A stretch of DNA of 64,000 bases from Eledone cirrhosa (Eukaryota). Shown piece by piece: positions 5,430 to 18,014 of this stretch; the first letter of the stretch is position 1; each line of letters opens with the position of its first letter. The notes beneath the pieces were generated by a model. It had not been told where the DNA came from and ran no database searches. It saw nothing but the letters and a program-made list of their open reading frames with translations. A program made the position numbers and the translations under genes. The DNA is taken from NCBI GenBank assembly GCA_964016885.1, contig OZ024747.1, positions 82,584,001-82,648,000 of the forward strand, written 5' to 3'.

Positions 5430-5485
5430 ACTGCTATATATATTTCGATGATAGCCATTGAATGGCTATGACCTCATCAGGCAGT
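5430..5485 (-). ncRNA. Minimal type-I hammerhead ribozyme inside a 165-bp (TA)n-flanked insert (5384-5548)
   Basis: Minus strand: ACTGC-CTGATGA-GGTCATAGCCA ttcaa TGGCTATCATC-GAAA-TATATA-TA^GCAGT; stem I ACTGC/GCAGT, palindromic loop III. Confidence 0.85.
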
Positions 5486-5557
5486 TAGTCAGTTCTTGGA
5501 TATGCCAGCTCTGTGCTTATAGTGTTGATGGTATCAGAGCCTTGGGACATATGTATG

Positions 5558-14978: not shown

Positions 14979-14979
14979 C

Positions 14980-16174
14980 CAAAGAACTAGAGAGACACAT
15001 ACAACACTTCATCCATCGTATGCAGTTCTCTGGTTACAATCAGAGAGATAAAATCAGAGTATATAGAGGAGCCAGAACCAAATGGGAAAAAATGGTAAAT
15101 AGTGATACAAATGGGACCTGCCCCTTGTATAGGAGCAAATTTTGGAATAGAATAGAAAGAACTAGGAATAAGGTTAATAGAATAAACTCATGGTATGATA
15201 GCAATAAATACCAGAGTGTAATGTTCATCAATACAACCCCTAGAGCTTACAAATATAGAAGGGCCTTAGATAAACTTAAACTAAATATTAAGATAGTAGA
15301 AAGACCAGGTACCACCATAAAAATACTTATTAGTAATACATACCCTTTTCAAAGACCTCCCTGTATAGATAAGAAATGCATAATCTGTAAATTAAGCCCC
15401 ATATTAACTGTAAAACTAGAAACATAGTATATAGCATAAGATGTACTGAAAGACAATGTAAATATAAGAATATAGTGTACATAGGTGAGACAGCTCGTAG
15501 TATAGGAGAACGATTAAATGAACACTGGCGAGAACTTCAAGATAGAAAAGAATCATCAGTACTCCACCAACATGCTAAAATAGAACATAAGGGCAAATTA
15601 GAGAACATAGAAATAAAAATATAATCTGCACACAGAAAAGACGCAATGTTTAGACAAATCACAGAGGCAATAAACATAAATGAACTCCAACGAAAATTAA
15701 ATAGAAAACATTACAACTTACAATTAAAGACAAAATGAAAACACACACACATAGCACAAACAACCAACCAGTAACATGTAAATAAACAAATAAATAAACA
15801 AATAAAAACACCCACAGACACCCAGATGTAACACATGTGCAAACTAAGCACACAACACACACAAAAACAAGATGGCGTAGGACAGATTAAAGGAGAGGCA
15901 CAAAACAAAGAAAAGAATCCCCAGTCACTGAAGAGGTCACAGAATGTGTGACGAAAGAACTTTGACAATATATGAACAACCGTCTGGTTGTGGAACTAAC
16001 CAACCAACCGGAAATTTATAAATTTTTAAATTTATAATTTAATTTATAATAAATTGGAGTGAAAGCAACTGGTGCGTGTTTCTTATTGGCAACATGACCC
16101 TCCCAAAGTATAACAATATCGGTTTCAACACACGTTTTCATATAAAGAATCTTGGTAAACAAATTCAGAAACGA
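14980..16174 (+). mobile_element. 5'-truncated Penelope-like retroelement (Naiad-like by motif recollection): post-RT linker, Cys finger, GIY-YIG endonuclease, 3' region with hammerhead, ending in (TA)n
   Basis: RMQFSGY..CPLYRSKFW..SVMFINTTP..CIDKKCIIC; after a frameshift at ~15400, CKTRNIVYSIRC..C..VYIGETARSIGERLNEH..HQHAKIEH..RQITEAINI..LNRK; one premature TAA. Confidence 0.9.
15924..15966 (+). ncRNA. Minimal hammerhead-like motif in the PLE 3' region
   Basis: GTCA-CTGAAGA-G-GTCACA gaatg TGTGAC-GAAA-GAAC-TT^TGAC; loop III not palindromic. Confidence 0.65.
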
Positions 16175-16370: not shown

Positions 16371-16436
<66 letters not shown>

Positions 16437-16442
<6 letters not shown>

Positions 16443-16963
16443 TGAAACAAAATGAAAACGAAATTTCATTTCTCACTCTTAGTATGGCACTTACTTAAAT
16501 GTAAGTATGCATGTATACGTACATACATATATGTATACAGACGTACAGTAGCATGCACATATATATATATATATACATATATATATACATATGCATACAG
16601 GTACACATACATATATGCACGTATCAGTTTAGCAGCGCTAACGTCGCTTTGTTCGTTTGTAAACAAACTGAACAGCCTGAATTTATGCCATACGGTGTTA
16701 AGGCAACCACGTCACCTTTTTGTTCAACACTGACACAGGAACGATGTACTAGTTTCAAGCTTGTTAGCTATCATCAGCACCGTTTACCCATCTGCCAGAT
16801 AGTTGAACGTTCGAAAGTATATACTTTCCTTATGAAAATTAACGGCTGAGCAGCCTAATTTGCATATTGAGTGAGTTAAATCGGTCAGGCATACCGAAAA
16901 CGATAAATTGAAACAAAATGAAAACGAAATTTCATTTCTCACTCTTAGTATGGCACTTACTTA
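16437..16963 (-). mobile_element. Non-coding retrozyme-like element: 466-bp monomer plus 61-bp terminal direct repeat, set in (TA)n
   Basis: Identical 61-bp repeats at 16437-16497 and 16903-16963; internal hammerhead at 16740-16784; no credible ORF. Confidence 0.7.
16740..16784 (-). ncRNA. Canonical minimal type-I hammerhead ribozyme
   Basis: Minus strand: AACGGTG-CTGATGA-TAGC taacaa GCTT-GAAA-CTAG-TA^CATCGTT; 7-bp stem I, palindromic CTAG loop III. Confidence 0.88.
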
Positions 16964-16970
16964 TATATAA

Positions 16971-17335
16971 TACATTATAAAGAGAGAAGAAACATAGATA
17001 TAATTAATAAGATATACCATACCCAAAAATTCCTTCTTTACTCCTCGACTACGTAGTTTCGTGGCATATTATGCAAAAACACTACATCACAGAGATATAG
17101 AATTTTTGTGAGGTCTGCCGACTTATCAAGGGGATACCTCATTGAGAGTTTCAAAACACGTCCGTAGGACGCGAGATCACGTCCTACGGCAGACCTCACA
17201 AAAATTCTATATCTCTGTGATGTAGTGTTTTTGCATAATATGCCACGAAACTACGTAGTCGAGGAGTAAAGAAGGAATTTGGGTATGGTATATCTTATTA
17301 ATTATATCTAATGTCTCTTCTCTCTTTATAATGTA
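16971..17335. mobile_element. Inverted-repeat insert (150-bp arms, 66-bp spacer) with a hammerhead 3' half
   Basis: Arms 16971-17120 / 17187-17335; GAAAC-TACGTA-GTC^GAG at 17247-17263; extra hairpin CCGTAGGACG/CGTCCTACGG at 17162-17189. Confidence 0.65.
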
Positions 17336-17862
17336 CTAGCAGTAAAGCCCGGCGTTGCTCGGGGTCGCTCAGTAGCTGTGTTAAAGTTACAATGTTAAGT
17401 TTCTTTTTTGGCTTAAAAACTGTAGTGTCTACTGTGCAGACTTGCATGTGGTGTTTTTGATTAATATTCCCTCAACCAACAATATGCCTTATGAAGTTAA
17501 GAAAACATAACGATAACCCGAATGTTATAACAAAAGAGGATGCTGGGGATAAAAACTGCACTGGTTATTTATTAACAAAGATCGAAAATGTAAACACTGC
17601 AACGCAGAGAAAAACAACGTAAGACGCTCAATGTAAACAGAACAAAGGGAAATAACTCGTCACTTACGCTCAAAAATCGATACATTAGATTCAATTTCGT
17701 CACATAGGGTGGGTCAATTTGAAATTTTTTTTTTCCGATGTCTTCGCTAGGGTTCAATGTACAAGTATAGCAATTTCGGTGCAATTCCGTCAGAGATTCT
17801 AAGAGGAGATGTGTGCCAAAAATCGATAGACAGACAGACAACCACAGCTTTATATATATAGA
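17336..17862 (-). mobile_element. Non-autonomous Helitron (527 bp)
   Basis: Minus strand starts A|TCTATATATATAAAGC followed by GTCT repeats and ends CCCG-AGCAACGC-CGGG hairpin then CTAG|T; canonical TC...CTRR ends at an A|T site. Confidence 0.85.
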
Positions 17863-18014
17863 TTATATAGCTCTGATACTGAATCAATCTAATCCATTCG
17901 GATTATTTTGTCCCAGTTATTCATAGAGCAACATCGGTTGAGGTTGGCACCACTAATTCAAGGATATATGTGGATATATTCATGTATATGTATGTGTCCG
18001 CATGTATCTGCTGT

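What the first reader, a model, noticed from the sequence alone, without database searches (positions are those of the whole stretch)
16437..16963. Retrozyme-like monomer-plus-overlap: footprint of a circular RNA template?
Seen: a non-coding 466-bp unit with a canonical hammerhead in the middle and an identical 61-bp direct repeat at both ends, between (TA)n tracts. The repeat is much longer than the other TSDs in this window and does not contain the ribozyme. Established: retrozymes self-cleave to monomers that circularise. Inference: reverse transcription once around a 466-nt circle plus 61 nt would give this permuted structure.
Basis: partly seen in the sequence, partly recalled or inferred. 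Interest (0 to 1): 0.72.

Follow-up and report, generated by a model that had tools for sequence, protein, structure and literature searches.

The report
Retrozyme copied from two fixed starts
This is one of more than ten thousand genomic units of a 466-base, protein-free repeat with a predicted self-cutting RNA motif; its copies start at two fixed points about 60 bases apart, as a protein-coding Penelope-type jumping gene of the same genome does, so it likely hitch-hikes on that enzyme and is probably copied from a small RNA circle, but the 61-base overlap here is ordinary truncation rather than proof of a circle.

Summary
Observation confirmed: 466-bp unit, exact 61-bp repeat, type I hammerhead on the minus strand, predicted cut at 16747|16746. 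It belongs to a huge young family (10,122 exact hammerhead 40-mers; arms up to ~19 units). The predicted circular permutation is absent: 136 of 152 arms start at one of two fixed sites (unit 1-9 or 56-66) beside (TA)n; the other end is variable. In inverted insertions one arm uses each site (42 of 44 classifiable). An intact Neptune-like Penelope element of this genome shows the same rule (17 of 17) with exactly 60-nt spacing but no detectable sequence similarity, so it is the likely helper. The focal copy is a site-A start truncated after 1.13 units; its ending at site B is no commoner than at control positions (7 vs 8 and 2). Better evidence for a reiterated monomer comes from arrays: 16 array-wide haplotypes in 22 arrays, no indels or pile-up of ends at the cut site; two or three arrays argue for multimers. 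No RNA was tested. Known kind (non-LTR retrozyme); this scan had already noted the two-site rule in other families, including in this genome.

The parts
16437..16902 (-). One full 466-nt retrozyme unit (RNA sense = minus strand; cDNA would read on the plus strand from 16437)
   Evidence: identical or near-identical units in tandem elsewhere
16437..16497 (-). 'Tail': the stretch between start site A (16437) and start site B (about 16496-16504)
   Evidence: family starts cluster at unit 1-9 and 56-66
16903..16963 (-). First 61 nt of a second unit, truncated; second copy of the direct repeat
   Evidence: continues as unit sequence in arrays
16740..16784 (-). Type I hammerhead core, predicted cut 16747|16746; U.U at the base of stem II; 1-bp helix III with palindromic CUAG; stem I may extend to 16729-16796
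   Evidence: sequence; weak Rfam HH9 match; 10,122 exact core copies; activity untested
16499..16620 (.). Internal TA/CA-rich tract of the unit; its length pattern differs between arrays and marks them
16373..16436 (.). (TA)n target tract at the start side
   Evidence: 124 of 134 family starts have a TA-rich 12-nt flank
14979..16174 (+). Decayed 3' part of a Neptune-like PLE (CxxxxCxxC finger, GIY-YIG, own hammerhead-like motif at about 15929, ends at 16119/16174 in the family); a separate insertion of the candidate helper family

Best explanation
The locus is a single-armed, truncated copy of an abundant young non-LTR retrozyme that is likely inserted into (TA)n by the reverse transcriptase/GIY-YIG protein of a Neptune-like Penelope element, probably from a reiterated monomer (circular) RNA. 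Shown: fixed starts at two sites about 60 nt apart, variable far ends, tandem arrays, inverted two-arm insertions with one arm per site, array-wide private variants, and the same two-site geometry in an intact PLE of this genome. Inferred: tandem arrays are transcribed, paired hammerheads cut out monomers that are ligated into circles; the PLE protein nicks both strands of (TA)n; one DNA end primes at site A, the other at site B; each RT displaces its way round for a variable number of laps; the cDNAs are joined head to head, or one arm alone is joined to the other target end. Here the arm started at A and stopped after 466+61 nt. With one hammerhead this copy is predicted unable to release a monomer by itself.
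For: Starts: 136 of 152 arms in 86 loci begin in two windows that cover 21 of 466 nt; 124 of 134 abut TA-rich DNA. Two-arm insertions: 42 A+B, 1 A+A, 1 B+B, 9 with an unclassifiable start; in the positionally chosen set alone 28 of 29. Intact PLE family: open frames to about 1,330 aa, two 3' ends exactly 60 nt apart, A+B in 17 of 17 resolved head-to-head insertions (paired by hand). PMC11167929 (main text read) shows in vitro that a PLE protein nicks and extends both strands of AT-rich DNA and starts at two internal sites that bound the 'tail'. Monomer reiteration: 22 young arrays/136 units give 16 distinct array-wide haplotypes; within-array differences 0.52 vs 1.71 between, 0 of 500 permutations as low; 9 of 12 two-armed arrays share the modal microsatellite in both arms; no indel at 303-317 in 136 units. 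The 198A variant occurs in single units of five arrays yet fills every scored unit of two others. Only 1 of 112 placeable ends lies within 305-316, so the cut site is not a stop.
Against: No RNA was examined, so expression, cleavage and circularity are untested. Array M079 carries an ordered multi-unit pattern (deletion unit then 331A unit) three times, in both arms; L103 is a 3:2 mosaic and L034 shows one variant in alternate units: these need a multimeric template or later DNA exchange. 3 of 12 two-armed arrays differ in modal microsatellite. Read-through of already homogeneous source arrays would also give homogeneous daughters. The retrozyme has no detectable similarity to the helper's terminal repeat and only this PLE family was sampled; site B of the retrozyme is spread over 60-68 (19/27/13) whereas the PLE's is sharp. 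In vitro, uncleaved RNA was the dominant PAc substrate (PMC11167929). 7 of the 22 arrays were chosen by best hit to the focal copy, which enriches 198A.
Confidence: 0.6

Rival explanations
1. Same family and same PLE-type insertion, but the template is an uncleaved linear multimer read through genomic arrays; array homogeneity comes from homogeneous sources and occasional DNA-level expansion.
For: M079, L103, L034 patterns; weak helix III and U.U pair suggest slow cleavage; hammerhead mutants did not affect PAc insertion in vitro (PMC11167929); local amplification after insertion is proposed in 10.64898/2026.07.22.740005.
Against: Daughters could never be longer than their source, yet arms reach 9.0 kb while the median arm is 0.5-0.6 kb; 16 haplotypes in 22 arrays would need many long, separately homogenised sources; within-array singletons are seldom shared between arrays apart from CpG sites.
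Confidence: 0.27
2. The template is a cleaved linear monomer and RT jumps repeatedly from its 5' end to a 3' end.
For: Would also homogenise arrays; end-to-end jumping is known for other non-LTR RTs (recalled, no call).
Against: No indels at the cut site in 136 units; 1 of 112 ends at 305-316, about 3.5 expected if uniform.
Confidence: 0.07
3. One reading: RT starts anywhere on a circle, so copies are circular permutations and the overlap is the footprint.
For: Constant period and more-than-unit length are real; 16 of 152 arms start outside the two windows.
Against: 136 of 152 starts lie at two sites; most of the exceptions start at 71-97 in the TA-rich stretch just behind site B, where alignments blur.
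Confidence: 0.03
4. The 61 bp is a target-site duplication, or the unit is the terminal repeat of a PLE ORF.
For: The 61 nt match the A-B distance, which could hint at a special origin.
Against: The 61 nt are internal family sequence in every tandem junction; ends at 61+TATATA occur 7 times genome-wide against 8 and 2 at two control positions; PLE-protein hits lie in 10 of 86 loci and none continues an arm.
Confidence: 0.03

Closest known systems
Metazoan non-LTR retrozymes (Cervera and de la Pena 2020, PMC7229834; Results and Discussion parts 2-4 of 6 read)
   Same: Non-coding tandem repeats with one type I hammerhead per unit, low GC, thousands of copies; U.U at the base of helix II as in axolotl HHR_Amex2, 1-bp palindromic helix III as in HHR_Amex1; the paper proposes circRNA templates giving tandem cDNA via PLEs.
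   Different: 466 nt is just above the 150-450 bp quoted; circles and cleavage were shown there and are untested here; that paper does not describe two fixed start sites or inverted two-arm insertions in the parts read.
Animal retrozymes as non-autonomous PLE derivatives (Li, Clavereau, Pollet 2026, 10.64898/2026.07.22.740005; parts 1-3 of 5 read, supplements not seen)
   Same: Co-occurrence with PLEs; monomers, dimers and multimers.
   Different: Their link is pLTR homology, and they consider arrays to grow locally after insertion; here no pLTR homology to the sampled PLE was found, the link is insertion geometry, and arrays look born as arrays. By their two-HHR criterion this copy is not 'active'.
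Endonuclease-bearing PLEs: tail and two RT start sites (Frangieh 2024, PMC11167929, main text read; Craig 2021, PMC8557442, passages read)
   Same: [quoted passage not shown]
   Different: No ORF; tail about 60 nt rather than 30-40; PAc showed no difference in start site between strands in vitro, whereas here the two arms use different sites in 42 of 44 (and 17 of 17 for the PLE).
L1 twin priming (recalled; only a search listing, PMC2912911, seen)
   Same: Inverted two-arm insertion from priming by both target strands.
   Different: In L1 the first arm starts at the poly(A) end and the arms do not overlap; here both starts are internal and fixed and the arms overlap by many units.

Membership tests
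non-LTR retrozyme | Type I hammerhead in each unit | tested here: met
   core and three stems read from sequence; 10,122 exact copies at unit spacing; Rfam below threshold
non-LTR retrozyme | Short non-coding tandem repeats, GC under 50% | tested here: met
   arrays of 2 to about 19 units per arm; ORFs over the unit are low-complexity frames without start requirement; region GC 0.34
non-LTR retrozyme | No LTR/PBS/PPT, no 4-bp TSD | tested here: inconclusive
   ends are fixed-start/variable-stop, not LTR-like; PBS/PPT not searched; TSDs cannot be read in (TA)n
non-LTR retrozyme | Self-cleavage of the RNA | not testable with these tools
   needs in vitro transcription
non-LTR retrozyme | Expression as circular monomers | not testable with these tools
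   no RNA data were available to lay
non-LTR retrozyme | At least two hammerheads in tandem at the locus ('active' by Li et al.) | tested here: not met
   one hammerhead in this copy; met at many other loci
PLE-mobilised non-autonomous element | Tail at one end, partial tandems, inverted truncated arm | tested here: met
PLE-mobilised non-autonomous element | Intact autonomous PLE in the genome with matching ends/target | tested here: met
   62 matches, most without stops; 60-nt spacing, (TA)n, A+B rule
PLE-mobilised non-autonomous element | Sequence homology to a PLE pLTR | tested here: not met
   no significant match to the one PLE family sampled; other PLE families not sampled
autonomous PLE | RT plus GIY-YIG ORF joined to the repeat | tested here: not met
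   0 of 86 loci with an ORF continuing an arm

The most novel reading that the evidence does not exclude
A Penelope-type RT dimer primes both strands of a cut (TA)n site at two points a fixed 60 nt apart on one circular RNA and rolls round it with strand displacement, and this retrozyme recruits the Neptune-like enzyme by mimicking that 60-nt geometry or shape rather than by sharing its sequence. The 61-nt tail-only stubs (5 of 7 hits; 3 A arms of 57-67 nt) would be collisions of the first RT with the second primer on the same molecule.
Probability: 0.3. Interest if true: 0.72.

Novelty: new member of a known kind. Interest (0 to 1): 0.42.

Why it matters
How PLEs and retrozymes form tandem and inverted insertions is stated as open in the papers read (PMC8557442, PMC11167929, the 2026 preprint). 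This genome offers a young retrozyme with thousands of near-identical units plus an intact PLE with the same 60-nt two-site ends, so circle versus multimer, and one site per strand, can be tested by a census and in vitro. The locus itself is an ordinary truncated copy.

Tried and rejected
RNA evidence: no RNA holder listed (6 runs, kind not on record); four contig sets laid only show presence of the unit and say nothing on expression or circularity. Rfam: no gathering hit; miRNA hits are TA-repeat noise. Recurrent 198 G/A mixtures first looked like lap-wise misincorporation; rejected, since the site is a CpG and those arrays were picked by a 198A query. Pile-up of ends near A/B as a circle signature: 24 of 76 for arms of 400 nt or more (p 0.003) but 11 of 55 (p 0.39) once first-lap arms are removed; not used. 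The focal end at site B as special: not enriched (7 vs 8 and 2). Similarity of the retrozyme to the PLE terminal region: local score reached by 151 of 200 shuffles; BLAST found none. The circular fold of the monomer is far below crude shuffles, but the TA tract drives it; not used. Older window-type PLE loci L117-L145 show the same two ends but were not counted because the classifier mislabelled several. Pfam found nothing for five window ORFs. The empty allele could not be examined. A look-up by sequence in earlier findings gave nothing.

Full report
Observation. The unit, the 61-nt exact repeat and the 466 period are as stated. The hammerhead is on the minus strand at 16740-16784 with the predicted cut at 16747|16746. 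It has the conserved core but a U.U pair at the base of stem II and a one-pair helix III with palindromic CUAG. PMC4209133 (passages read) describes such short palindromic helices as needing a second ribozyme to work as a dimer, and PMC7229834 reports both traits in axolotl retrozymes. Rfam does not call it and folding gives no independent support. The right flank is only TATATA.

Family. The 3.0-Gb genome holds 10,122 exact copies of the 40-nt core and 4,252 of a 53-mer of the youngest subfamily. The best named homologue of the neighbouring PLE protein is an Octopus vulgaris protein, 63% identical, so the host is probably an octopod (inference). I fetched 49 clusters from the first 100 listed hits, 15 further clusters and 22 best-hit loci: 86 loci, the first 64 chosen by position on one contig and all required to carry the probe sequence, which biases towards longer arms.

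Ends. Copies are not permuted. Of 152 arms (one arm cut by a locus edge was left out; two loci were corrected by hand), 136 start at unit position 466/1-9 (site A) or 56-66 (site B); 124 of 134 starts have TA-rich flanks. Far ends are scattered: 112 of 136 can be placed, 24 fall in the internal TA tract. Among 53 head-to-head insertions 42 are A+B, one A+A, one B+B and 9 have an unclassifiable start; independent choice would give at most half (28 of 29 in the positional set, p 6e-8). Single arms: 25 A, 15 B, 6 other. This is the PLE 'tail': PMC11167929 identifies it as the stretch between two RT start sites, and PMC8557442 notes that it is often at one end only.

The focal copy starts at A and ends at position 61 of the second unit, so its repeat coincides with the tail. 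That looks mostly coincidental: an end at 61 followed by TATATA occurs 7 times in the genome, against 8 and 2 for ends at positions 250 and 457 (not normalised for subfamily divergence). Five of the 7 are 61-nt stubs, two of them followed by an inverted B arm, and 3 A arms in my sample are 57-67 nt long: a weak hint that both primers can sit on one RNA molecule.

Helper. The decayed PLE at 14979-16174 (GIY-YIG; CxxxxCxxC finger, Neptune/Nematis type by the description in PMC8557442) belongs to a family with intact members: a search with a distant PLE protein returned 62 matches, most without stops, with the same hammerhead-like motif. Its 3' ends fall at two sites exactly 60 nt apart, each AATAT|CG in the uninterrupted sequence, followed by (TA)n. 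Seventeen of 17 resolved head-to-head insertions are A+B; two further pairs were unresolved, one locus showed no inverted arm, and one end labelled 'other' by the script was read as B by eye. Units of one PLE insertion differ at 0-1 of about 2,090 nt (5 pairs) against a median of 8 in 40 random pairs. Retrozyme site A reads TTTAT|CG in RNA sense; otherwise no similarity was found. No retrozyme arm runs into a PLE ORF. Helper status is therefore an inference from geometry, target and shared youth; other PLE families were not sampled.

Template. A cleaved linear monomer is unlikely: 1 of 112 ends lies within 305-316 and none of 136 units has an indel at 303-317. Between circle and uncleaved multimer: of 27 young loci tested, 22 had three or more scorable units; they show 16 distinct array-wide haplotypes, 0.52 differences per unit pair within arrays and 1.71 between (0 of 500 permutations), and 9 of 12 two-armed arrays share the modal microsatellite in both arms. 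Examples: 450T in 18 of 18 scored units of one arm, private tract lengths giving periods of 468 and 476 in both arms, 198A fixed in two arrays but single in five. This points to a one-unit bottleneck at or near each insertion. Against it, M079 repeats an ordered pattern in both arms, L103 is mosaic and L034 alternates, so multimeric templates or DNA-level exchange also occur, and homogeneous sources would give homogeneous daughters. I put circle at about 0.6, multimer at about 0.27. PMC7229834 and PMC4209133 already propose more-than-unit reverse transcription of circles; the 2026 preprint favours later local amplification. No RNA was examined.

Novelty. The family fits animal non-LTR retrozymes; this copy has one hammerhead and is predicted inactive as a source. 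Six literature searches showed no paper on this family or stating a one-site-per-arm rule, though the one-sided tail is in print, the library omits most subscription papers, and supplements were not read. Earlier notes of this scan (consulted after my tally) report the same two-site rule for other retrozymes, two of them in this genome; they are unchecked and not independent support.

Noticed in passing
window 14979-16174 (+); intact relatives L146-L175: Young Neptune-like PLE family with intact ORFs up to about 1,330 aa, a length-variable Asn/Thr-rich repeat near the N-terminus, tandem and head-to-head copies, hammerhead-like motif about 200 nt upstream of its first end site.
   Followed up: partly
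window 16964-17338: Palindromic element directly right of the finding (154-nt arms 97% alike, inner 94 nt 100%) with a hammerhead-like variant (GAAA followed by palindromic CUACGUAG, atypical CUGA box) in each arm; possibly another head-to-head retrozyme-like insertion.
   Followed up: no
window about 5440-5492 (-): A third, unrelated type I hammerhead-like motif (CUGAUGA...GAAA, stem I 5-6 bp) next to (TA)n.
   Followed up: no
window about 17339-17864: Repeat also found in L127; its ends resemble non-autonomous Helitron/Helentron-type elements (recalled, not tested).
   Followed up: no
L079+L091 (G000:C1:69577966-69586756): 19-unit two-arm array with an ordered deletion-then-331A pattern three times, in both arms: best case for a multimeric template or inter-arm conversion.
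   Followed up: partly
L196, L197, L200, L201, L202: 61-nt tail-only stubs of the retrozyme embedded in (TA)n, two with a short inverted site-B arm.
   Followed up: partly
L056, L064, L087: An older diverged subfamily (about 77-90% identity) with the same site-A start, nested beside younger copies in the same TA tracts.
   Followed up: no
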